64,000 nucleotides of DNA from Wickerhamiella versatilis. Taxonomy: Eukaryota. Shown here piece by piece: positions 11,883 to 52,592 of this stretch. The notes under the pieces are model-generated. The model saw nothing but the letters and a program-made list of their open reading frames with translations. It was not told the origin of the DNA and ran no database searches. Numbering within the stretch: position 1 is the first letter of the stretch; every line of letters starts with the position of its first letter. The translations under genes were made by a program, and so were the position numbers. Where the stretch lies: contig JAQOWU010000007.1 of the NCBI GenBank assembly GCA_030867685.1, forward strand, positions 2,294,001-2,358,000. The letters are read 5' to 3'.

Positions 11883-12968
11883 CTATGTAGGGGCCCACGC
11901 AGCAGATAGCATGGACTCAAGTAGTTGCAGGTAGTTCCATCCATCAGCCTTGGCGGCAATCAGACACAGTGAGTCTTGGTTCTCACGGCCAGGACGTCCA
12001 GCGCCTGTCATGTTGGGCTTCATGTTAAGATCAAAGAGAAAATATTGACCACTACTATCAGCACGGCAGTCGATTCTTATGGGTGCTCTCGCCTTAACAA
12101 TCTCAGCAGCCTTTTCGCAGCTCTCAATGACGTGCTGAAAGGCAGGCTGCGTAACCTCGTCGCTAGATACGGCGGTGCTGTTAAAAACAACTGGAACCGA
12201 GCCATTGTATGGTGCGATGCCATTTTCGTGATTTGTACGCCTAACGGGCCGCAATGCCCAGGGCTTAGCGCTCTTAGCACCAGAGAGATTGATACTTCCC
12301 GCGGGCATCACGGTAATTGTAATCTCATCACCATTGAGGCACTGCTCTATCATTAGCGATGCGCCAAATTCCTCATCGGAGAGTAGTTCATTTCCTGCAG
12401 CCACCAGTTCGTCAAATGTGCCGGTTAGAGTGACGCCCTGGCTTCCGCGGCCCCTGATAGGCTTTACGACGAGAGGAAAACTCAAACCATGATATGCAAG
12501 AGTATCCGGAGTCAACTGTTCAAACTGAGGCTTATCAACAATAATTGACTGGGCCACAGACAAACCTTCATCCCGAAGCAGCTGATTGGTAATGTATTTA
12601 TCATCCCTGTCTTGGACATTCGAGGGTTCTTGCCCCACAATATACGTGTTTCCCTGAATATTTTCCAGCGGGTGGCCTCTAAAAACTACGGTATTTGCCC
12701 AGAGCACACCTGCACCCTTGTAAATTGCAGATTCAATGCCCTCAGCTGTATCTGGAAATACCCAATTCAGGGGAACGTTTGCGTTGGGCTCAGGTAGCGG
12801 GGTGACGACTGTGTAGCCACCACGCTTTAGTGCGTAGCCAATATCAGCGCCACTATCCGAGTAGCCCCCAGGCTTTGGGCTCTTCCGCAACCCGCCAATT
12901 GTGGGTGGTGCTAGAGCCTGGTATAGAATAGCAACTTTGTGCCGCATCATGTTCGTCATGACTTTCAT
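11883..12968 (-). CDS. Stand-alone ATP-grasp carboxylate-amine ligase (D-Ala-D-Ala-ligase-like fold), substrate unknown
   Basis: DDKY, FPLVVKPIRGRGSQGV, MIEQCLNGDEITITV, IRIDCR..YFLFDLNMKPNMT ATP-grasp motifs. Confidence 0.85.
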   Translation of the reverse strand: MKVMTNMMRHKVAILYQALAPPTIGGLRKSPKPGGYSDSGADIGYALKRGGYTVVTPLPEPNANVPLNWVFPDTAEGIESAIYKGAGVLWANTVVFRGHPLENIQGNTYIVGQEPSNVQDRDDKYITNQLLRDEGLSVAQSIIVDKPQFEQLTPDTLAYHGLSFPLVVKPIRGRGSQGVTLTGTFDELVAAGNELLSDEEFGASLMIEQCLNGDEITITVMPAGSINLSGAKSAKPWALRPVRRTNHENGIAPYNGSVPVVFNSTAVSSDEVTQPAFQHVIESCEKAAEIVKARAPIRIDCRADSSGQYFLFDLNMKPNMTGAGRPGRENQDSLCLIAAKADGWNYLQLLESMLSAAWAPT

Positions 12969-26278: not shown

Positions 26279-27784
26279 CTAGCATCTTTGCTGCGCTTCA
26301 AGAATATTAAGGTCCATATGATTTCTCATGTAGCGTTCACTGGCCGCAAAAAAGGGCTGGTGATCCCAGGGTGTATATCTGCCCTTACGAAGAGCTTCAT
26401 ATACAAAGATTCGACGAGCTTGACTCTCGCGAACCTCGGTGTCAAACTTTTTAAGATCCCAACGAGCCCGTACTCGTTCTATGAAGTCCTGTACAATATC
26501 CGCGTAATCAGAATCTTTCGCGAGATTCCGGAATTCATAAGGATCGGTCTCTATATTAAACAGCTGCGGAGGGTCATTGTCACACCAGTTGAATTTGTAT
26601 GGTCCATCGCAAATTGTCACCAGCGGAGCTACAGTTCCTTCTGCCGCATACTCCATATATACAGGTCCATGGTGACTTTCTTTTTTTATCAGCGGCAAAA
26701 GCGACACTCCATCACCAGATAGGAATTCATCGTCAATATTATCGATTCCCACTAGCTCAGAAAGAGTATTGGCAATGTCGACGGTGGACACTGCTTCGTT
26801 TATGGTTTCAGCCTTTTGTCCAGGGATTTGAATTGCGAGAGGCACCCGGGAGGAGCCTTCGCGAGGACTCATTTTGAACCAGAGGCCATGATCTCCGAGC
26901 ATGTCACCGTGGTCGGAAAGGAACAATATAATTGTGTTATCTCGCATTCCAGTGCGTTCAAGAATTTTAAGCAATCCACCAAACTTATCGTCAATGTAAG
27001 AGATATTGCCAAAATATGCGCGACGAGAACGTCGAATGTTCTCGTCGGAGATGTTGAAAGCCTTGTAGTCATTGGCGTCGAGCAGACGCTTAGAATGCGG
27101 GTCCTGCTGGTCATAGGGAACGGCTGGTGCATTAGGCATTAACGCAGGACAGTTTTCATATAGATCCCAGTATTCCTGTCGTGTGACGTAGGGATCGTGG
27201 GGGTGAGTGAAACTTACCGTCATACACCAAGGCCGCGGGTCCTTTCCACGGGCAAAGTCACGAAGTTTCTGTTCCGCGACGAAAGCAACTTCATCATCAT
27301 ATTCAAGCTGGTTACTGGTCTCTGCCACACCTGCTCCAGTGACCGATCCCATGTTGTGGTACCACCAGTCCACCCGCTCATTAGGTTTGCGATAGTCGGG
27401 TGTCCAGCCGAAATCAGAGGGATAAACATCAGTAGTCAGGCGCTCCTCGAATCCGTGAAGCTGATCTGGACCTACAAAATGCATTTTCCCTGAGAGAACG
27501 GTATTATATCCATTTCGACGCAGCTGATGAGCGAATGAAGGCATACTAGCCGCTAATTCCGCGGCATTGTCATAAACACCGCTACTTGACGGAAGCCTTC
27601 CTGTCATTAGGGACGCCCGTGCAGGACCGCAGAGTGGACTGCTAGTATAGCAATGCGAGAAGTTAACTGCGGAGTTATACCAGGACCGAAGGTGTGGCAC
27701 ATGAAGAAAGTCTGCGGGACCATTCTCAAACAGTGTGCCGTTCACCTGATCCGCCATGACAATCAATACATTGGGCCGTGACAT
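26279..27784 (-). CDS. betC: Choline sulfatase, proteobacterial type
   Basis: SSPLCGPARAS (CxPxR), GKMHFVGPDQLHGFEERLTTD, GWTPDYRKPNERVDWWYHNMGSVTGAGVAE, SFTHPHDPY, ERYMRNHMDL; collinear with rhizobial BetC as I recall it. Confidence 0.93.
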   Translation of the reverse strand: MSRPNVLIVMADQVNGTLFENGPADFLHVPHLRSWYNSAVNFSHCYTSSPLCGPARASLMTGRLPSSSGVYDNAAELAASMPSFAHQLRRNGYNTVLSGKMHFVGPDQLHGFEERLTTDVYPSDFGWTPDYRKPNERVDWWYHNMGSVTGAGVAETSNQLEYDDEVAFVAEQKLRDFARGKDPRPWCMTVSFTHPHDPYVTRQEYWDLYENCPALMPNAPAVPYDQQDPHSKRLLDANDYKAFNISDENIRRSRRAYFGNISYIDDKFGGLLKILERTGMRDNTIILFLSDHGDMLGDHGLWFKMSPREGSSRVPLAIQIPGQKAETINEAVSTVDIANTLSELVGIDNIDDEFLSGDGVSLLPLIKKESHHGPVYMEYAAEGTVAPLVTICDGPYKFNWCDNDPPQLFNIETDPYEFRNLAKDSDYADIVQDFIERVRARWDLKKFDTEVRESQARRIFVYEALRKGRYTPWDHQPFFAASERYMRNHMDLNILEAQQRC

Positions 27785-27794
27785 CGTGATTGAT

Positions 27795-27800
27795 CCTCCT
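27795..27800 (-). promoter_or_regulatory. Shine-Dalgarno-like AGGAGG 10 nt upstream of the betC ATG (probably vestigial)
   Basis: Minus strand reads ccAGGAGGatcaatcacgATG. Confidence 0.55.
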
Positions 27801-27877
27801 GGAGCAAGGTTATCTTTGGTAGAGTTTATATCAATACCTCGGCGAGACCGATCGGTATTGGGACCGAATTGCGTTGT

Positions 27878-28629: not shown

Positions 28630-29127
28630 CTACTTGGCAATTACATCCACAGCCTTATCCACGTTGCCGCGAATTGCATTTGAGTAGGGGCATGTCTGGT
28701 CGGCCTCAGCCACTAGATCCTCGGCCTCCTTTTGGCCAAGACCCTCAATAGTAACCTTCATGTCAACGGCGATATTGAATTGACCAGGCTGTTTAGGTAC
28801 TAGGGATACAACGTTTGTGACTTCCACTGCCTTCTCAGGTAGTCGAAGCTTGCGTTTCTGATTAGCCGTAAACAAGATGGCGTTTTCGAAACAGGCAGCA
28901 TAACCACCTGCAAATAGCTGCTCTGGGTTGGTGGCACCACCCTTGCCGCCCATAGATTTGGGGATTGCGAGCTTGATATCTAGAAGACCATCGTCGCTCT
29001 TGATGGTACCATGACGTCCCCCAACTGCCGAAGCGCTTGTGGTAAACAAAGGCGAGGCTTTCGCTGCATAGCCTCTGAGTCCAATTCTACCGAAGTTCAA
29101 TGCTGGGGTAATAGCTTTGCGAAGCAT
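28630..29127 (-). CDS. ohr: Organic hydroperoxide resistance protein Ohr with N-terminal mitochondrial-type presequence
   Basis: GGRHG, ATNPEQLFAGGYAACF and CPYSNA motifs. The first ATG at 29127 gives the leader MLRKAITPALNFGRIGLRGYAAK; the track start at 29310 is TTG. Confidence 0.92.
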   Translation of the reverse strand: MLRKAITPALNFGRIGLRGYAAKASPLFTTSASAVGGRHGTIKSDDGLLDIKLAIPKSMGGKGGATNPEQLFAGGYAACFENAILFTANQKRKLRLPEKAVEVTNVVSLVPKQPGQFNIAVDMKVTIEGLGQKEAEDLVAEADQTCPYSNAIRGNVDKAVDVIAK

Positions 29128-29473
29128 TATGCTAAATATTGAAGCCGGGGAGCTCGCTATAAATCCTATACACCTAACCCTGATAGGGCCGTTCCAGCAC
29201 AGCAGCAAGTAAGCGATAGATTCTAGACTGCTGAGCAGTCTGTCAGCAGAAACTTGGGTCTGGGCTCGACGCTTTGAAATAAGCCTAATCTTAAATAATA
29301 TGACTTCCAAAAACGTTGCTACACAGAGAATTTAATTCTGAGGTCAATGTGTCCTCGGCACCCCTCGACTTATTTATCGTCGAAATCTGAAACTTAACGC
29401 GTTGTACGTCTCTTAGCTAATAGATCTATTCTGGTGAGTGGGATCTATAGATCTGTATTGAAAAAGCCTAAGC

Positions 29474-31110: not shown

Positions 31111-31971
31111 TTATATGGCACGCTTCCTGCTTTCCTGGATGTACGCCTGTCTCAACCTTAGCGTTACAGGGCCCGGCTGGCCATTTGCGATTTCTACATC
31201 ATCGATTACAACGACTGGAGTCACGAATGTGGTTGCGGACGTTGCAAAGCACTCCAATGCATTCTGGGCCTCAGCAACCGTAAAGGATTTTTCTTGGACA
31301 TCCAGTGAAAGTTCCTCCGCGATCTTGTACACCACTGCACGTGTTACTCCTGGCAAGATTGAATGCGATAGTTCCCGTGTAATAAGTTTGTGATCACGGG
31401 TAAGGATCCAGACATTATTTGATGCACCTTCAGTCACTTTACCATCCTCAACCATCCATGCGTCAGCTGCCCCGGAGGCTTTAGCAGTCATTTTGGCCAT
31501 CACAGGATATAGCAATTGAACCGTTTTGATATCTCGCCGTGCCCATCGCAGGTCTGGGAGGGTCACTACACTAATTCCCTTGGAAGCTGATGGATTTTCA
31601 ACCAACAATTTCGCCTGAGTGAATACCACGAGAGTGGGGGGAGTGCCAGCTGAGTATTGAAAGTTCCTATCACCCTCATTCCCACGTGTGAGTTGAAGAT
31701 ATACTGCTCCCTCAGTTATTCCGTTTATATGGATAAGCTCGCGATATAGTTTCAGAAGTTCCTGCTCACTGAGCGGTAGCTTTATACCCACCTCGTTTGC
31801 TGATCTTCGCAAGCGCCTTGTGTGTCCTTCGAAGTCTACCAGCTTCGATTCAAGCACACAAGTCATTTCGTAAATTCCATCTGCAAAGAGGAATCCGCGA
31901 TCAAAAATAGATACTTTTGCATCTTCCTCCGCAACATAGATTCCATTCAGGTACACAGTGCGATGACTCAT
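31111..31971 (-). CDS. dat: D-amino-acid transaminase (PLP fold type IV), bacterial type
   Basis: VSIFDRGFLFADGIYE, DLRWARRDIKTVQLL (catalytic Lys), VTEGASNN, ILPGVTR. Confidence 0.88.
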   Translation of the reverse strand: MSHRTVYLNGIYVAEEDAKVSIFDRGFLFADGIYEMTCVLESKLVDFEGHTRRLRRSANEVGIKLPLSEQELLKLYRELIHINGITEGAVYLQLTRGNEGDRNFQYSAGTPPTLVVFTQAKLLVENPSASKGISVVTLPDLRWARRDIKTVQLLYPVMAKMTAKASGAADAWMVEDGKVTEGASNNVWILTRDHKLITRELSHSILPGVTRAVVYKIAEELSLDVQEKSFTVAEAQNALECFATSATTFVTPVVVIDDVEIANGQPGPVTLRLRQAYIQESRKRAI

Positions 31972-32057: not shown

Positions 32058-32858
32058 CTATTCATCCACACATAGGGCTAATGTTGCACTTAGTCCCATA
32101 AGTAAGGCGCCTGCTGAAGCCGCAACTCCAGAAAAAGAAAACATCAGCCCCATCTGAATGCCGGACCACATGCAAAGAGGAATTTCGATCGTGGCACCAA
32201 CAATAAACATATAAGAGGCCCATTTAGCAGTAGAAACAGGTAAGGTCAAGGATAATGCAATTAATGGCATGCATATGGCTACCTGGAATGGCCGTAGTGA
32301 CGAGAGAATAGAGACAGGAAGAACGGCAGTAGGAAGAACAAGAGGCAACAGAAACAAGGTACAAAAAAATGTTAATAGTGTAGATGCGAATACAGAATTG
32401 ACCTTCCTTGCGCTAGTGACTAACTGTATGATGGGAATGACGGTGCGCATGTTATCAAGCATTGCCAAAGAAAACGTTGAAAACGCAATAATTGCCACAG
32501 TGTAGCTTTGTATACCACTGTCGAGAATCTTATCGTAATCACCACTTTCCCTTAGTTCAAATCGTAGATTGAAAGATGTAAAGAGGACGGCCACTAAAAT
32601 CAATACGACGTTGACAAGGCACAATGACACAGCTCTTTTCAGCGAAAAATATCCAGAAGGGCGGATAAACCTTTGATAAATAAATGGTGCTATACAGGGA
32701 GCCAGCATGACGAGTTTATGTTCTGTGACAAAATTCGTTGCTTCCGGCACGACAGATGAAAAAACTGCGCAAGAGAGAGGACCAAAAAATTCATATGCAG
32801 TGAACTGAGATTTACTGATACTCACAGACTTCTGATTTCTTTTCGGATTCGACGCCAT
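32058..32858 (-). CDS. Hypothetical multi-pass membrane protein
   Basis: 266-aa ATG-started ORF with about 7-8 hydrophobic segments; no family recognised. Confidence 0.55.
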   Translation of the reverse strand: MASNPKRNQKSVSISKSQFTAYEFFGPLSCAVFSSVVPEATNFVTEHKLVMLAPCIAPFIYQRFIRPSGYFSLKRAVSLCLVNVVLILVAVLFTSFNLRFELRESGDYDKILDSGIQSYTVAIIAFSTFSLAMLDNMRTVIPIIQLVTSARKVNSVFASTLLTFFCTLFLLPLVLPTAVLPVSILSSLRPFQVAICMPLIALSLTLPVSTAKWASYMFIVGATIEIPLCMWSGIQMGLMFSFSGVAASAGALLMGLSATLALCVDE

Positions 32859-32967
32859 TCTGCCTCCTTCAATTCGACTTTGACGTTCGGGGGTTTAGTC
32901 ATACGCTGAAGTGGATCCTTAAGTGCCAACAACTCTCAGCTCTTCGCAATTTTATCCTTCTTATAGA

Positions 32968-33627
32968 ATGCCTTCATTGAGCAGAAATATTCCTGTTGAC
33001 AAGACATGTACCACTGTCTTGTATATTGACTGTCAAAACTTCAATTGTCACCGTAACGGTGGTGAGTATAAAAGTATGTCTTCAGAAGAGCAAGAGCGTA
33101 GATTCAAGTTCTTCTTTGACAAAATCGATTCCGAAACTATCCCGAACCTAGTAGATCTTCAAAATGCTTCTCGAAATAACGGTCTAGAGGTGATGTATAC
33201 TGTTATCGAAAGCCTCACAAAAGATGGTAGGGATAGGAGCTTAGATTATAAGATTACTGGATTTAATGTACCACGAGGATCTTGGGATGGCAAAGTAATC
33301 GATGCCCTTAAGCCACTTGATGATGAGATTGTTCTGCCAAAAACATCCTCCAGCGTTTTCATCTCCACACACATAGACTACGTTCTCCGTAATCTCGGCA
33401 CTCGATATCTAGTAATATGTGGATTCCTTACCGACCAGTGTGTGGAGAGTACAGTACGAGATGCATGCGACCTTGGATACTATGTTACGGTGATTACGGA
33501 TAGCTGTGCCACGCTCACTCAAGAACGTCATGAACGATCCCTCTCAGCTGTGAAGGGCTACTGCCGGCAAATTACCACACGTGAATTTATTAAGGAGCTT
33601 AGCGCCCAGAGTGACACCAATAAGTAG
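32968..33627 (+). CDS. Isochorismatase-family cysteine hydrolase, bacterial type
   Basis: IDCQN, ESLTKDGRDRSLDYKITG, LPKTSSSVF, TDQCVESTVRDACDLGY (Asp-Lys-Cys triad). First ATG at 32968; the track start at 32923 is GTG. Confidence 0.9.
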   Translation: MPSLSRNIPVDKTCTTVLYIDCQNFNCHRNGGEYKSMSSEEQERRFKFFFDKIDSETIPNLVDLQNASRNNGLEVMYTVIESLTKDGRDRSLDYKITGFNVPRGSWDGKVIDALKPLDDEIVLPKTSSSVFISTHIDYVLRNLGTRYLVICGFLTDQCVESTVRDACDLGYYVTVITDSCATLTQERHERSLSAVKGYCRQITTREFIKELSAQSDTNK

Positions 33628-33726
33628 AATTTAATTCAAATTTTCTCGCAATATCAGTAAATAAATGCCCAAAACCGTGTCTTATCTAAGCAAACAATAA
33701 GCTATCAGCATCGATTAGGATGCCAT

Positions 33727-35043
33727 ATGGGCCAAGAAACTAAATCAGGTGATTCACAACTACTAGTAGTCTCCGTGGTTGACTGTGCTGGTGTAACTAG
33801 GGGTAAGTGCGTCCCTAACTCGAGAATTCGATCCGCAGCTCAGTGTGGTTTAGGTGCCTCGACTTCGTGGGCCTTATTCACTGTTGTGAATGATCTGGCT
33901 TGGATTCCATCTGTGAATGTTGTTGGCGACGACAGGATTTTTCCGGATCTATCCAGTAGCGTTAAACTAGATCGCGGACTGGTCTGGGCACCAGCTGAGA
34001 TATGGCAGCAAAATGGCGAGCGAGCCTTCTGGTGTACGAGGACCTTTCTGAAACAGCAAGTGGAGACTTTGGCGGCAGCTGGAATAAGTGCTAAAGTAGG
34101 ATGTGAAATTGAGTTTACTCTGATACCAAATCAGAGTCCTCTTCCTCAAACAAGGTGGCATTCATATGGCATAAGCAGTCTACTAGACCAGGAAGATTTT
34201 GTACGCAATGTATGTGAGGAGTTCCATCGTATAAATTTAGGGCTTGAGCAATTTCATGCGGAGTTTGGCTACCTCCAGTACGAGATTTCCATGACAGCTT
34301 CAGATCCCATCAGTGCCATAGACAAGTTAACTCTGGCAAAATTCTTACTAGGCCGGATTGCGCGTCGCCACAACTGCGTTATATCTTTTTCACCACGACC
34401 ATTTGCCAATGATGCTAGTAATGGAGCTCATACTCATGTATCATTTTACCGAAATGGAACTCCTTTGCTCTCAGGCCACGAGGGCCAGTATGGAATAAGC
34501 AGGGAGGGTGCTGCCATTATAGGTGGCATAACTCACTTTCTTCCGGAACTAATAGGTCTTTTGACACCATCTATACTTTCTGTGGCGCGTCTTAATGGCA
34601 GTTGGTCTGGCTCGTATTCTTGCTGGGGCATTGAGAACCGAGAAGCGGCAGTGCGGTTCTGTCCGAACAGTGCTGAAGGAGGAGATAATGCTAATATTGA
34701 AGTTAAATGTATTGATGCCTCTGCAAACCCGTATGTCACCTGCGCAACAATCCTAATAATGGCCATTGAAGGTATTGAACGAATGCTTTCTTTGCCGAAA
34801 GAAATAAGTGTGCATCCCGATTCGTTATCTGAAAAAGACCGAAAAAAATGGGGAGTTGAGCGGCTTGCAACAGACCACATTGAAATGCTGGATAAGTTAG
34901 AGAACAGTGAACTAGCGCGCCGTACTATCCAACCACAGCTACTGGATTCTCTGATTGCCGTTAGAAGATATGAGAACAAGGTACTTAAAGAGCGCCCGCT
35001 AGAGGAAGTAGTGGAAACTCTGCGCTTCGCCTGGTCTACGTGA
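33727..35043 (+). CDS. Glutamine-synthetase-like gamma-glutamyl-amine/polyamine ligase, GlnA3 type
   Basis: GCEIEF, EQFHAEFGYLQYEIS, NGAHTHVS, CWGIENREAAVRF, NIEVKCIDASANPY. GLGAS..W, VVGD.R and the C-terminal RFAWST match actinobacterial GlnA3 as I recall it, not yeast GLN1 (GSII). Confidence 0.85.
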   Translation: MGQETKSGDSQLLVVSVVDCAGVTRGKCVPNSRIRSAAQCGLGASTSWALFTVVNDLAWIPSVNVVGDDRIFPDLSSSVKLDRGLVWAPAEIWQQNGERAFWCTRTFLKQQVETLAAAGISAKVGCEIEFTLIPNQSPLPQTRWHSYGISSLLDQEDFVRNVCEEFHRINLGLEQFHAEFGYLQYEISMTASDPISAIDKLTLAKFLLGRIARRHNCVISFSPRPFANDASNGAHTHVSFYRNGTPLLSGHEGQYGISREGAAIIGGITHFLPELIGLLTPSILSVARLNGSWSGSYSCWGIENREAAVRFCPNSAEGGDNANIEVKCIDASANPYVTCATILIMAIEGIERMLSLPKEISVHPDSLSEKDRKKWGVERLATDHIEMLDKLENSELARRTIQPQLLDSLIAVRRYENKVLKERPLEEVVETLRFAWST

Positions 35044-37634: not shown

Positions 37635-38807
37635 ATGACTTCATTGGATATCGTGATTGCTGGTGCAGGAATTGGAGGGCTCGCTACGGCTATTGCACTC
37701 CAACAGAAGGGTCATAAGGTTCGCCTTTTTGACCGAGTTCAGGAGCTTAGACCTGCAGGATCTGCGATCAGTGTGTGGAGCAATGGTGTGATTGTCCTGG
37801 ATGCGTTGGGACTGGGAAAGGCTATGGATGAAGCCAGTGGTAATATGGAGGCCATGAGTTACCATGATAAAGATGGTAAACTGCTGACCAGATTCAGCCT
37901 TAAACCGCTATATGAATCTGTGGGTAGGGCAGCGAAACCCATAGCTCGCACTGAACTTCAACGCGTGCTTCTTGAAGGTGTGGGCGGCAAAGTTCAACTA
38001 GGCAAGCGTTGTGTGGGCTACAACAAAAAAAAGGAAGGGGGCGTTGAAGTCCTTTTTGATGATGGAGACAAGGTTGAGGCGGACTTGCTGGTGGGCGCTG
38101 ATGGGACGCACTCCGTCCTGCGAAGTCAGGTAGCTGGGCGTAAGGTCGATCGCCGGTATAGTGGATATGTAAACTGGAATGGTCGTGTGAAAGCCACCGA
38201 GAAACTGGCCCCCTCTGCCGACTGGACTCAATTTGTAGGCGACGCGAAACGAGTATCTATGATGCCCATGGGCAATGGGCTTTTCTACTTTTTCTTCGAC
38301 GTTCCTCTTCCAGCAGGTACGGAAAGCGATCCTGCGAAATACAAAGAGGAGCTCTCTGGCTATTTCAAGGGCTGGGCAGAACCTGTACAAGAGCTGCTTC
38401 GCGAAATGGACCCCTCTACGATAGCACGCGTCGAAATCCATGATATCGATCCTCTGGACAACTTGGTTGATACGGGTGTCGCACTAATTGGCGATGCTGC
38501 TCATGCCATGTCCCCAGATCTGGGACAGGGAGGTGTACAAGCTATTGAGGATGGTTGGGTCTTGGCAAAGTGCATAGAAGCTCATCCAGGAGACCTTAAT
38601 GCTGCCCTTAAAGCCTACAATGATTCTCGTGTTGAGCGTGTAGCATCAATAATTACGCGTGCCCGCAAGCGCAGCGAGACTACACACGGTAAGGACATGA
38701 AGGAAACTGAAGAGTGGTATGAGGAGCTTTCTCATGAGAATGGTGACAATATAATGGGTGGCATGCGTAAGACGATACTTGGTGGTCCTATCAAGGCAAA
38801 TCCTTAG
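37635..38807 (+). CDS. hpxO: FAD-dependent urate hydroxylase, bacterial type
   Basis: GAGIGGL, AISVWSNG, RRYSGYVNWNG, FYFFFDVPLPAG, VEIHDIDP, GDAAHAMSPDLGQGG, THGKDMKETEEWYEEL; collinear with Klebsiella HpxO as I recall it. Confidence 0.9.
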   Translation: MTSLDIVIAGAGIGGLATAIALQQKGHKVRLFDRVQELRPAGSAISVWSNGVIVLDALGLGKAMDEASGNMEAMSYHDKDGKLLTRFSLKPLYESVGRAAKPIARTELQRVLLEGVGGKVQLGKRCVGYNKKKEGGVEVLFDDGDKVEADLLVGADGTHSVLRSQVAGRKVDRRYSGYVNWNGRVKATEKLAPSADWTQFVGDAKRVSMMPMGNGLFYFFFDVPLPAGTESDPAKYKEELSGYFKGWAEPVQELLREMDPSTIARVEIHDIDPLDNLVDTGVALIGDAAHAMSPDLGQGGVQAIEDGWVLAKCIEAHPGDLNAALKAYNDSRVERVASIITRARKRSETTHGKDMKETEEWYEELSHENGDNIMGGMRKTILGGPIKANP

Positions 38808-50878: not shown

Positions 50879-51670
50879 ATGAAACTTCGAAGTATCGCAA
50901 AAGCTTTGGAGGTGAAGCATGAGGGCGAAACAGACCAGACCACATACTTGCAGAACAAGGATATCATTCCTATGGACCGCAGAGACGAAATTGGGGAGCA
51001 TTGACTTATGGATTTTATTGGTCACTTTTGAATGTCAGCTTAGCTACTTGGTCTGGCGCTTCGTCTATTTTATCATTGGGTCTTTCTGTTTGAGAGACAA
51101 TGGGTGCGATCGTGATCGGTAATCTATTGATTGCATCCTGGAGTCTTCTCAACTCAGCACCGGGTGGAAAATACCATATAGGGTATACAATCAACCAGCA
51201 TGTTGCTTTTGGCATCCGTGGTTCTCTTTTGCCTATTATCATGAGAATTATCTTGTCAGTAGTATGGTATGCATCTGAGTCTTATCTTGGATCACTATGT
51301 CTAAATTGTGTTTTCGCATCTTGGAGCAAAAACTATTTATATCTGAAGAACACCATTCCTCAATCCGTGCAAATGTCAACCCGGCAACTTATTGGGTTGG
51401 TATGTTACCATATAATTGGTTACCCATTGTTGCTTATTCGTCCTGAGCGCTTGAAAAAAGGTATGACAATATGTGTTTTTTTGAATTTTTTTGTATTTCT
51501 GGGGATTAAAATCTGGGCCGTTCACATGAATGGTGGAAATGGTCCGCTTATGAGCTCATCAGGCAAGACATTGTCTGGCTCAGCTAGAGGTTGGGCCTGG
51601 GTCAAAGGTATCTGTACATGGTACGGTAACCTCTGCACTGGAGTGACCAACCAGGCTAATTACACGCGAG
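50879..51670 (+). pseudogene. NCS1 nucleobase/allantoin/thiamine permease (Fur4/Dal4/Thi7-like), 5' half only
   Basis: ATG at 50879 gives MKLRSIAKALEV..NKDIIPM; frameshift near 50980 into RRNWGALTYGFYW; in-frame TGA at 51091-51093; PGGKYHIGY..FGIRGS. Similarity stops at NQANYTR. Confidence 0.88.
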
Positions 51671-52592
51671 CCTGGCCATGTTCAAATACATAGAGTGCGA
51701 AAAGGCAGATGGCGTGCTGGCCTTCGAGATCGGTGGGGGAAACGGATTTACCGCGATGAAATGCGGATCTTCAGCAAAGCTGGATTTGCCAGTTGTCGAT
51801 TATGATTTAATGGGACGGGCATATCCCACGCACAACCAGACTACTGTATGTGCTCTCACTGGAGGACACTTTTGGGATGTGGTGTCTATTTCTGATTGTA
51901 ATAGAAATAATATTTTGATAACGGGTGCTCAAATCGATGAGCTTGTGGAGAGAATGGCGCGAGCAGCACTTGCACAAATTGGATGTTACGTGGAGGCAGC
52001 TAATACACCAATGTCTTCTAAACAGTTGGACCAAATGACGATTCATAATTCGCTCTCCCAAGCTTGGAGTATAGGAAGAGCTGTCTTTATTGGTCGACAG
52101 AAAATGGAGATAGATAGGCTACCCAAGTACAGTTTGGATAGCCTTGGTGGTGATGGCAAGATTGGACGTCAAATTTTCCAAGGGAAAATAGTACGCGTTG
52201 AAAAAAAGCTTCATATTGGCCAGGTTTACGGGGAGGTGCAGATTGAAGATGAAAACCAGAACTGTTTGAAAATTCCTTTCAAAAATGAGAACATCGTTGC
52301 TGAACTACAATCAAATGGTTCCAATCACTGGGATGTACTCACTTCAGTCCCCGACTTGATCTCTGTTTGTTATAGCGACAGTGGTGAGGCATGTGGTACG
52401 CCGGACTACCGCTATGGCATTATGGTATTTGTTATTGCCATTGCACCCAGCAATTTATGGACAAGTTCTGATAGAGCTCTTGCTGTTGGTGGACAAGAAG
52501 GATTTGGTCCAATATTTGAAGGTATAAGGTATACTCCAGTTGGCATTTATTCCGAGCCACTATCAGTGATAGATGAGTATTTCATGGCCTAG
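51671..52592 (+). pseudogene. 3' fragment of a DUF917-domain gene (C-terminal part of a fungal hydantoinase/oxoprolinase-DUF917 protein)
   Basis: EIGGGNG, VVDYDLMGRAYP, FQGKIVRVE, IPFKNENI, SVPDLISV, GEACGTPDYRYG. It begins mid-domain directly after the truncated NCS1 gene, with no promoter space. Confidence 0.78.

What the first reader, a model, noticed from the sequence alone, without database searches (positions are those of the whole stretch)
32968..35043. Operon-like isochorismatase + GlnA3-type ligase pair: candidate gamma-glutamylation pathway for amines in a yeast
Seen: two co-oriented bacterial-type genes only 99 bp apart. Established: GS-like enzymes (PuuA/PauA, Streptomyces and mycobacterial GlnA3) gamma-glutamylate polyamines and other amines. 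In Pseudomonas aeruginosa an isochorismatase-family gene (PA5507) directly precedes a GS-like gene (PA5508/pauA7). Yeasts normally have only GSII (GLN1). Inference: this is either a transferred operon fragment or a re-assembled pair, since the ligase looks actinobacterial GlnA3-like and the hydrolase proteobacterial-like. It could give the yeast an amine activation plus amide hydrolysis route not described in budding yeasts to my knowledge.
Basis: partly seen in the sequence, partly recalled or inferred. Interest (0 to 1): 0.72.

Follow-up and report, generated by a model that had tools for sequence, protein, structure and literature searches.

The report
Co-transferred bacterial amine-tagging gene pair
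A yeast carries two neighbouring genes taken together from one bacterial gene cluster, an enzyme that probably tags amines with glutamate and an amide-cutting enzyme, which would give it a bacterial-style way to handle amines such as polyamines.

Summary
Observation confirmed: intact isochorismatase-family cysteine hydrolase (32968-33627) and GS-like ligase (33727-35043), tandem, 99 bp apart, both transcribed. The 're-assembled from two donors' idea fails. Both genes nest in one proteobacterial clade, 13 paired trees agree, and a ligase placement outside that clade is rejected (AU p=0.004). The layout is not the donor's, though. In 14 of 14 loci holding a close ligase and the hydrolase, the two are divergent, often with FGase, RpiR, permease and aminotransferase genes; no FGase or permease match was found in the yeast. 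A 99-bp gap is ordinary here, and the ligase shows its own mRNA 5' end. The ligase is GlnA3-type: metal, ATP and glutamate ligands kept, ammonium-site residues replaced. It is probably an amine (polyamine) gamma-glutamylase, not a spare glutamine synthetase. The hydrolase keeps its Asp-Lys-Cys triad; its substrate is inferred only. A 2026 Wickerhamiella versatilis table already lists the ligase as a bacterial gene 'reinforcing' GS, but has no separate hydrolase entry. A second organism keeps the block. An earlier scan note covers this same window; I found none on other DNA.

The parts
32968..33627 (+). Isochorismatase-family cysteine amidohydrolase, 219 aa; triad D21, K125, C158; subfamily motif DGRDRSLDYK
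   Evidence: Pfam; triad invariant in 14 of 14 aligned sequences and in register with RutB D24/K133/C166 read off the alignment; fold nearest 3KL2, RutB, BiuH; expressed
33727..35043 (+). GlnA3-type gamma-glutamyl-amine ligase (GS-like), 438 aa
   Evidence: Pfam/NCBIfam; best PDB sequence hit 4HPP; key residues; tree; expressed
33628..33726 (+). 99-bp AT-rich spacer (GC 0.32). Holds a pile of fragment 5' ends at 33713, an AGGA (33717-33720) 6 nt before the ligase ATG and a short out-of-frame ATG at 33720
   Evidence: an AGGA in that position arises by chance about 3.5% of the time, so it is only a weak hint of a ribosome-binding relic
32859..32967 (.). 109-bp divergent promoter region shared by the hydrolase and an orphan membrane gene; inferred 5' ends at 32901-32918 (+) and 32864-32888 (-)
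   Evidence: Read-start piles and adaptor-bearing loose ends (the adaptor is recognised as a template-switch oligo from recall)
32058..32858 (-). Orphan membrane protein, 266 aa; neighbour, not part of the bacterial cluster
   Evidence: No Pfam match; one strong homolog, P0392 (50%), on a 30,948-bp contig; no match in the bacterial loci tested
31111..31971 (-). D-amino-acid transaminase; bacterial but a separate transfer (best named hits Salinicola/Vreelandella, 62-67%)
   Evidence: NCBIfam PRK06680 over cut-off; present in only 1 of 80 hydrolase loci

Best explanation
One horizontal transfer brought the two-gene core of a proteobacterial amine-catabolism cluster into an ancestor of this Wickerhamiella-type yeast (well supported, about 0.9). 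The source cluster reads hydrolase <- (FGase <- RpiR) | ligase -> (permease -> aminotransferase). The accessory genes were lost or never came. One gene is flipped relative to every sampled close relative, and each gene is now transcribed from its own 5' end (inferred). Step 1 (about 0.85; inferred from residues and family): the ligase uses ATP and two metals to make gamma-glutamyl phosphate and transfers it to an organic amine, most likely a di- or polyamine, not ammonium. This neutralises and protects one amino group. Step 2 (inferred): the free end is oxidised or transaminated by enzymes elsewhere in the genome, or the conjugate is simply a detoxified or stored form. Step 3 (about 0.6 that it acts in this route; about 0.35 for this exact role): the cysteine hydrolase cleaves an amide via a Cys158 thioester, most simply releasing glutamate from the processed conjugate, the job given to PuuD or predicted for SCO6961.
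For: Shown: both genes cluster with the same partners. The 7 splits with at least 80% support in the 13-pair ligase tree are all present in the hydrolase tree (one at 56%); Mantel r=0.82. Yeast ligase plus Celerinatantimonas, Acidocella and two unnamed proteins form a 96% clade inside a 100% clade with the enteric copies; AU p=0.0036 against placing it outside. All 6 named proteobacterial loci with the close ligase carry the hydrolase within about 2 kb; 0 of 76 actinobacterial loci do. Ligase keeps E127, E129, E179, E186, H235, E325, N232, G233, H237, R288 and R310, and has G43, S146 and W293 where GS has D50, Y179 and E327. Residue spacing matches GlnA3Mt at a steady offset of 10-12, including S188 = the Ser199 needed for polyamine activity (PMC11841054). 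Cluster neighbours are amine-type: amino-acid permease, class III aminotransferase, DAO-family oxidase. Actinobacterial ligases instead have an Amidohydro_2 gene (58 of 76 loci), absent from the 14 close proteobacterial loci, so the hydrolase slot looks swapped. The hydrolase is the only hydrolase of the cluster beside the ligase in L004, L005, L173 and the yeast, and no FGase was found in the yeast genome. Both genes are intact and expressed in 4 of 4 runs. A second organism holds the hydrolase, ligase, transaminase and orphan gene on contigs of the same length, at 78/60/71/50% identity.
Against: No activity was measured. No characterised member of this hydrolase subfamily was found; its nearest solved relatives (RutB, biuret and triuret hydrolases) cut small ureido or carbamoyl amides, not gamma-glutamyl amides. 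Its tightest bacterial partner is FGase (72 of 80 loci), ahead of a GS-like gene (57 of 80), and FGase is the family proposed in print for deglutamylation (PMC6529630). L132 and L162 carry Amidohydro_2, FGase and this hydrolase together, so these are not simple substitutes. The yeast has no close match to the cluster's aminotransferase (best 32%), and its oxidase and permease were not found with single queries. Ligase plus deglutamylase alone could be a futile cycle. The ligase has K327 where PauA7/GSI have Arg; this is invariant across the clade. The donor genus is unresolved (47-53% support). Six of the 13 pairs rest on matching contig lengths, not on DNA that I saw. The constrained tree of the AU test came from a fast search.
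Confidence: 0.6

Rival explanations
1. Same co-transfer, reverse order of steps: the hydrolase acts first, cutting an N-carbamoyl or N-acyl amine (RutB/BiuH/N-carbamoylsarcosine-like chemistry), and the ligase captures the freed amine as its gamma-glutamyl amide. A model of this kind was proposed for FluG.
For: Nearest characterised relatives cut ureido or carbamoyl amides. FGase co-occurs in 72 of 80 loci and could do the deglutamylation in bacteria. The amidohydrolase-feeds-ligase model is in PMC6478659.
Against: The yeast genome gave no FGase match, so the conjugate would need a native hydrolase or be an end product. No substrate is known.
Confidence: 0.3
2. A true tandem operon fragment: an unsampled donor already had hydrolase -> ligase in one transcript, and the yeast kept the order, perhaps with some bicistronic RNA.
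For: Direct hydrolase->GS tandems exist in 2 of 54 loci with distant GS genes (L137, L152). An AGGA sits 6 nt before the ligase ATG. Coverage continues across the spacer at 450-bp resolution, and the two genes have similar depth. The loci of three close pairs (P0004/P0124, P0005/P0167, P0007/P0123) were not seen.
Against: 14 of 14 close loci are divergent (6 named, 8 near-redundant enteric-type metagenome loci). Fragment ends pile at 33713 in two runs of one sample: 8 at depth 16 and 5 at depth 15.
Confidence: 0.2
3. The ligase is a second, ammonium-using glutamine synthetase (the published 'reinforcement' class), and the hydrolase is an unrelated passenger.
For: KEGG K01915 assignment and 'Reinforcement' label in PMC13376923 Supplementary Data 6. 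Foldseek ranks true GS structures first. The ligase was not differentially expressed between the two media tested there.
Against: The ammonium-site residues D50, Y179 and E327 are replaced (G43, S146, W293). GlnA3 enzymes lack GS function in the papers read. The same table's PANTHER call is gamma-glutamylputrescine synthetase. A native GSII is present, at 244-599 TPM against 34-67.
Confidence: 0.08
4. Two separate transfers (actinobacterial ligase, proteobacterial hydrolase) met in a xenolog-rich chromosome region, as the neighbouring transaminase did.
For: The wider ligase family is mostly actinobacterial (76 of 80 loci). Independent xenologs do cluster here.
Against: Congruent trees, AU rejection and physical linkage in all 6 named close loci.
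Confidence: 0.04

Closest known systems
GlnA3 gamma-glutamylpolyamine synthetase with its amidohydrolase neighbour (S. coelicolor SCO6962/SCO6961; mycobacterial GlnA3)
   Same: Same ligase family: residue set and spacing match, Ser199 equivalent kept; actinobacterial relatives at 38-47% mostly carry a downstream Amidohydro_2 gene (58 of 76).
   Different: The partner is an isochorismatase-fold cysteine hydrolase lying upstream; the proximate source is proteobacterial; the host is a yeast; substrate untested. I had no GlnA3 sequence for direct alignment.
PauA7/PA5508 of Pseudomonas aeruginosa (PDB 4HPP)
   Same: Best PDB sequence hit (E 1e-40); same G40/A147/W296-type replacements; an amino-acid permease (PA5510) is nearby (PMC9397018). 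The RpiR, isochorismatase and FGase neighbours of PA5508 are recalled, not checked.
   Different: Only 24% identical; Thr for S188 and Arg for K327 in the alignment; PauA7 prefers aromatic amines (as cited in PMC6478659).
FluG of filamentous fungi
   Same: A fungal GS-like gamma-glutamyl ligase tied to an amidohydrolase.
   Different: FluG is a fusion with a TIM-barrel amidohydrolase and acts in development. Here there are two genes from a separate transfer; an Amidohydro_2 query found nothing in this genome.
Horizontal operon transfers in Wickerhamiella/Starmerella yeasts (enterobactin ent genes; thiamine salvage)
   Same: Linked bacterial genes moved together into the same yeast lineage, with short gaps and mostly monocistronic transcripts.
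   Different: Only two genes; sampled donors hold them in a divergon, not an operon; the pathway is uncharacterised; seen only in this species and one relative.
GlnA4 / Chromohalobacter ethanolamine glutamylation route
   Same: Ligate, process, then hydrolyse logic; FGase in the bacterial cluster.
   Different: The ligase here matches GlnA3 spacing; no dehydrogenase pair lies next to it in the yeast; no FGase found in the yeast.

Membership tests
GlnA3-type gamma-glutamylpolyamine synthetase | GS fold with metal, glutamate and ATP ligands conserved | tested here: met
   All 11 positions invariant in 20 of 20 aligned sequences; model pTM 0.88 with GS fold
GlnA3-type gamma-glutamylpolyamine synthetase | Ammonium-site D50, Y179 and E327 replaced by Gly, small residue and Trp | tested here: met
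   G43, S146, W293, mapped through the 4HPP alignment and the residue lists
GlnA3-type gamma-glutamylpolyamine synthetase | Ser199 (GlnA3Mt numbering) required for polyamine activity | tested here: met
   S188 by numbering offset; invariant in 20 of 20; mapped by offset, not by direct alignment
GlnA3-type gamma-glutamylpolyamine synthetase | Adjacent Amidohydro_2 gene (SCO6961-like) | tested here: not met
   No match in the yeast genome with one query; absent from the 14 close proteobacterial loci
GlnA3-type gamma-glutamylpolyamine synthetase | ATP-dependent glutamylation of polyamines | not testable with these tools
   Needs an enzyme assay
True glutamine synthetase (GSI/GSII) | D50/Y179/E327 ammonium site and equivalog score | tested here: not met
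   Residues replaced; TIGR00653 152.8 against cut-off 429; GlnII 33.7 against 500
PuuA (NCBIfam GGputSyn) | Score above the curated cut-off | tested here: not met
   216 against 650 bits
Isochorismatase-superfamily cysteine amidohydrolase | Asp-Lys-Cys triad on the isochorismatase fold | tested here: met
   D21/K125/C158; fold match
RutB / BiuH / nicotinamidase equivalogs | Score above the curated cut-off | tested here: not met
   74.5/378, 59.9/370 and 37.6/174 bits
Horizontal operon transfer | Genes share one donor lineage | tested here: met
Horizontal operon transfer | Genes co-oriented in one donor transcription unit, order kept in the host | tested here: not met
   Divergent in 14 of 14 close loci; the actual donor is unsampled
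Horizontal operon transfer | Bicistronic or overlapping transcripts in the host | tested here: inconclusive
   A separate 5' end pile at 33713, but coverage continues at 450-bp resolution; short reads only

The most novel reading that the evidence does not exclude
A budding yeast runs a bacterial protect-and-release gamma-glutamylation route for polyamines on just two imported enzymes. The uncharacterised, widespread isochorismatase-fold hydrolase is the gamma-glutamyl amide hydrolase, a further fold doing PuuD's job. The pair was flipped from a divergon into a tandem after transfer, with the hydrolase borrowing a compact two-way promoter from a native gene.
Probability: 0.25. Interest if true: 0.7.

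Novelty: new variant of a known kind. Interest (0 to 1): 0.45.

Why it matters
If true, it adds another co-transferred bacterial module to the yeast lineage known for operon capture, and shows capture from a divergon followed by rewiring. It would move a catalogued xenolog from 'extra glutamine synthetase' to a new function, amine gamma-glutamylation. It also gives a two-gene eukaryotic test system for a hydrolase subfamily found in at least 587 genome stretches for which my searches found no characterised member. The lineage is already known to be rich in bacterial genes, so the transfer itself is not surprising.

Tried and rejected
Single-protein locus scan for the ligase found nothing; alignments worked. 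De novo clustering of neighbouring ORFs was swamped by shadow frames and was replaced by targeted tblastn. Foldseek on the ligase ranked true GS structures first and 4HPP 37th, so the fold does not tell function. FGase copies elsewhere in the Acidocella and Parvibaculaceae genomes stand apart from the cluster. The D-amino-acid transaminase was rejected as part of the transfer: different donor group, in 1 of 80 loci. The orphan membrane gene got no family. No stand-alone PuuD-like gene is evident: the 4 Peptidase_C26 matches are partial, inside ORFs of 479-659 aa. The 99-bp gap and the AGGA were weighed as operon evidence and found weak. The run search listed no indexed holder on record as RNA; the raw-read runs were laid instead. 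No complex prediction was run, since no binding is claimed. Paper searches that found no account of the pair or of the hydrolase's function. Scan-note look-ups by sequence and by words were empty. Rows dropped: L084, L085 and L088 as duplicates of L003-L005 in the orientation count; trees used 49, 25, 55 and 13 sequences chosen from larger hit lists.

Full report
OBSERVATION. They sit among fungal genes, about 310 kb from the end of a 2.64-Mb contig. The genome has one other GS-family match, a GSII only 25% identical over 269 aa. GC3 is 0.41 and 0.39, within the range of the neighbours (0.38-0.49) and below three of four bacterial homologs (0.58-0.78; Celerinatantimonas 0.41). The 99-bp gap is short but not special: second shortest of 12 tandem gaps, behind an 86-bp gap between unrelated genes.

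HOST AND PRIOR RECORD. Gene order around the pair matches a run of genes in the Wickerhamiella versatilis table of PMC13376923, Supplementary Data 6: ddl, two PDR, UGA3, betC, GT31, dat, an unannotated native gene, gamma-glutamylputrescine synthetase, KNH1, hpxO. I therefore treat the host as that species or a close relative. The ligase (05317) is listed as 'HGT Bacteria', KEGG glutamine synthetase, role 'Reinforcement', 34-67 TPM, in an 'End' domain. Only one gene is listed between dat and the ligase; its GC (0.4232) equals that of the orphan membrane gene (0.423). The hydrolase thus has no entry of its own, though a merged gene model cannot be excluded. The main text has no occurrence of glutamine, glutamyl or isochorismatase. 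In the W. domercqiae sheet only a native GS carries K01915; the file is cut in the third species.

ONE DONOR. The best ligase hits and best hydrolase hits share contig lengths seven times. Loci show the link directly. All six named proteobacterial loci with the close ligase (48-53%) carry the hydrolase (67-70%) within about 2 kb: Celerinatantimonas, Parvibaculaceae, Hyphomicrobiales, Pantoea, a Pluralibacter plasmid and Acidocella. None of 76 actinobacterial loci does; 58 of those 76 have an Amidohydro_2 gene instead. In a 25-sequence ML tree the yeast ligase and P0002 (100%) lie in a 96% clade with Celerinatantimonas, Acidocella and two unnamed proteins, within a 100% clade that adds the enteric group. 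Forcing the yeast out of that group is rejected (AU p=0.0036; constrained tree from a fast search; four of the nine group members are unnamed). The hydrolase tree of 55 sequences recovers the same group, less the Parvibaculaceae and Hyphomicrobiales copies and plus a few unpaired sequences, at 0.987. This shows joint inheritance; it does not name the donor genus.

NOT THE DONOR'S LAYOUT. The ligase and hydrolase are divergent in 14 of 14 loci with the close ligase, 8 of them near-redundant enteric-type metagenome loci. They are directly head to head, about 205-212 bp between matches, in L004, L005 and L173, or separated by RpiR and FGase. Among 54 loci with a distant GS-like gene, 48 are divergent, 4 are GS->hydrolase and 2 are hydrolase->GS. 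The yeast's tandem order is therefore either an inversion after transfer (preferred) or an unsampled donor's order. Across 80 hydrolase loci, FGase is present in 72, a GS-like gene in 57 and RpiR in 42. In the yeast genome no FGase was found, the cluster permease and oxidase were not found with single queries, and the best aminotransferase match is 32%.

KEPT AND EXPRESSED. Proteins P0122, P0002, P0273 and P0392 (78, 60, 71 and 50% to the hydrolase, ligase, transaminase and orphan gene) all come from 30,948-bp contigs. The transaminase has a different donor group and the orphan has no bacterial match, so this is most likely a sister yeast with the same block (inference; DNA not seen). Four RNA runs from at most 3 samples and 2 studies cover both genes, at roughly 25-55-fold summed depth. 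Fragment ends pile at 33713, 14 nt before the ligase ATG, in two runs of one sample. Hydrolase 5' ends map at 32901-32918, back to back with the orphan gene's at 32864-32888. This fits separate eukaryotic-style transcripts, as reported for the ent genes (bioRxiv 10.1101/399394), but short reads in 450-bp bins cannot exclude read-through, and 84 rows of that table were not shown.

ENZYME ANATOMY. Read against 4HPP and the residue lists of PMC6529630 and PMC5403932, the ligase keeps all metal, glutamate and nucleotide ligands except R359 (K327, invariant in the clade). It replaces the ammonium-site D50, Y179 and E327 with G43, S146 and W293. Numbering runs at a steady offset of 10-12 from GlnA3Mt, which puts S188 on the Ser199 needed for polyamine activity (PMC11841054). 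It fails the cut-offs for GSI, GSII and PuuA. The hydrolase has the Asp-Lys-Cys triad in register with RutB and is nearest to 3KL2, RutB and biuret/triuret hydrolases, but passes no equivalog cut-off. It is an amidohydrolase, not an isochorismate lyase (established family knowledge: the lyases lack the Cys; recalled).

MECHANISM. Best reading: the ligase glutamylates a di- or polyamine; other enzymes process the free end; the hydrolase cuts an amide in the same route, most simply releasing glutamate. The genome has 11 class III aminotransferase matches as candidates for the middle step, two of the six scanned passing omega-aminotransferase-type subfamily cut-offs. For the release role: the hydrolase occupies the slot of the actinobacterial amidohydrolase and is the only cluster hydrolase beside the ligase in three bacterial loci and the yeast. 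Against it: relatives cut ureido amides, FGase is the usual partner, and two loci hold all three hydrolases. The reverse order (hydrolase frees the amine) is nearly as likely. Shown: anatomy, joint origin, expression. Inferred: every catalytic step.

COMPARISON AND VERDICT. It works like the GlnA3-amidohydrolase module and FluG. It meets the residue tests for GlnA3 but not the neighbour test. It is a co-transfer like the W/S operon captures but fails the 'donor operon order' test. Ten paper searches found no account of the pair; the library lacks most subscription papers. Papers seen: PMC13376923 (abstract, passages, sections 7 and 17; supplements 1, 7 and 13 by search, one part of 13 read, files 1-9, 11 and 12 searched once without hits; files 10, 14-16 and three large files not seen, and they may bear on whether the hydrolase is listed); passages of PMC6529630, PMC5403932, PMC6478659, PMC9397018, PMC11841054, PMC4409342 and bioRxiv 10.1101/399394; one reference entry in PMC9650388. 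Ladner 2012 and Tipton 2015 were not seen. Verdict: real, a new variant of a known kind, interest 0.45.

Noticed in passing
window 32859-32967: Divergent transcript 5' ends of the orphan membrane gene and the hydrolase lie only about 13-50 nt apart, a very compact two-way promoter.
   Followed up: partly
window 27785-27804 and 32859-32878 (- strand): A full AGGAGG lies 9 nt before the ATG of the bacterial choline sulfatase and 4 nt before that of the orphan membrane gene; chance is about 0.1% per site. Possible ribosome-binding relics; the second is unexplained, since that gene is listed as native.
   Followed up: partly
window 32058-32858 (-): Expressed orphan membrane protein with one strong homolog (50%) and five weak ones (24-29%), none with a Pfam family.
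   Followed up: partly
window 31111-31971 (-) and 11883-12968 (-): A Halomonadaceae-like D-amino-acid transaminase and a D-Ala-D-Ala-ligase-like ATP-grasp gene lie 19 kb apart; both are listed as bacterial transfers in PMC13376923. This hints at D-amino-acid metabolism in a yeast.
   Followed up: partly
window 26279-27784, 37635-38807, 28630-29310: Choline sulfatase, HpxO urate hydroxylase and an Ohr peroxiredoxin all pass bacterial family cut-offs. Reads show loose ends at 29107 in two runs, consistent with an intron or a strain difference in the Ohr gene.
   Followed up: no
G000:C1 about 748-1017 kb (L186, L188-L191) and L182:1432-3036: Five class III aminotransferase genes on one contig arm, two of them about 800-aa fusions, plus a 534-aa protein with a biuret-hydrolase-like N-terminal domain.
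   Followed up: partly
L083 and plasmid hits: The full bacterial cluster (hydrolase, FGase, RpiR, ligase, permease, aminotransferase) lies among IS elements on a Pluralibacter plasmid; ligase matches occur on 45 Klebsiella plasmids among 53 records, so it is mobile today.
   Followed up: partly
window 51100-52592: An NCS1 permease fragment and a DUF917-like ORF overlap in different frames; possibly intron-split or broken genes.
   Followed up: no
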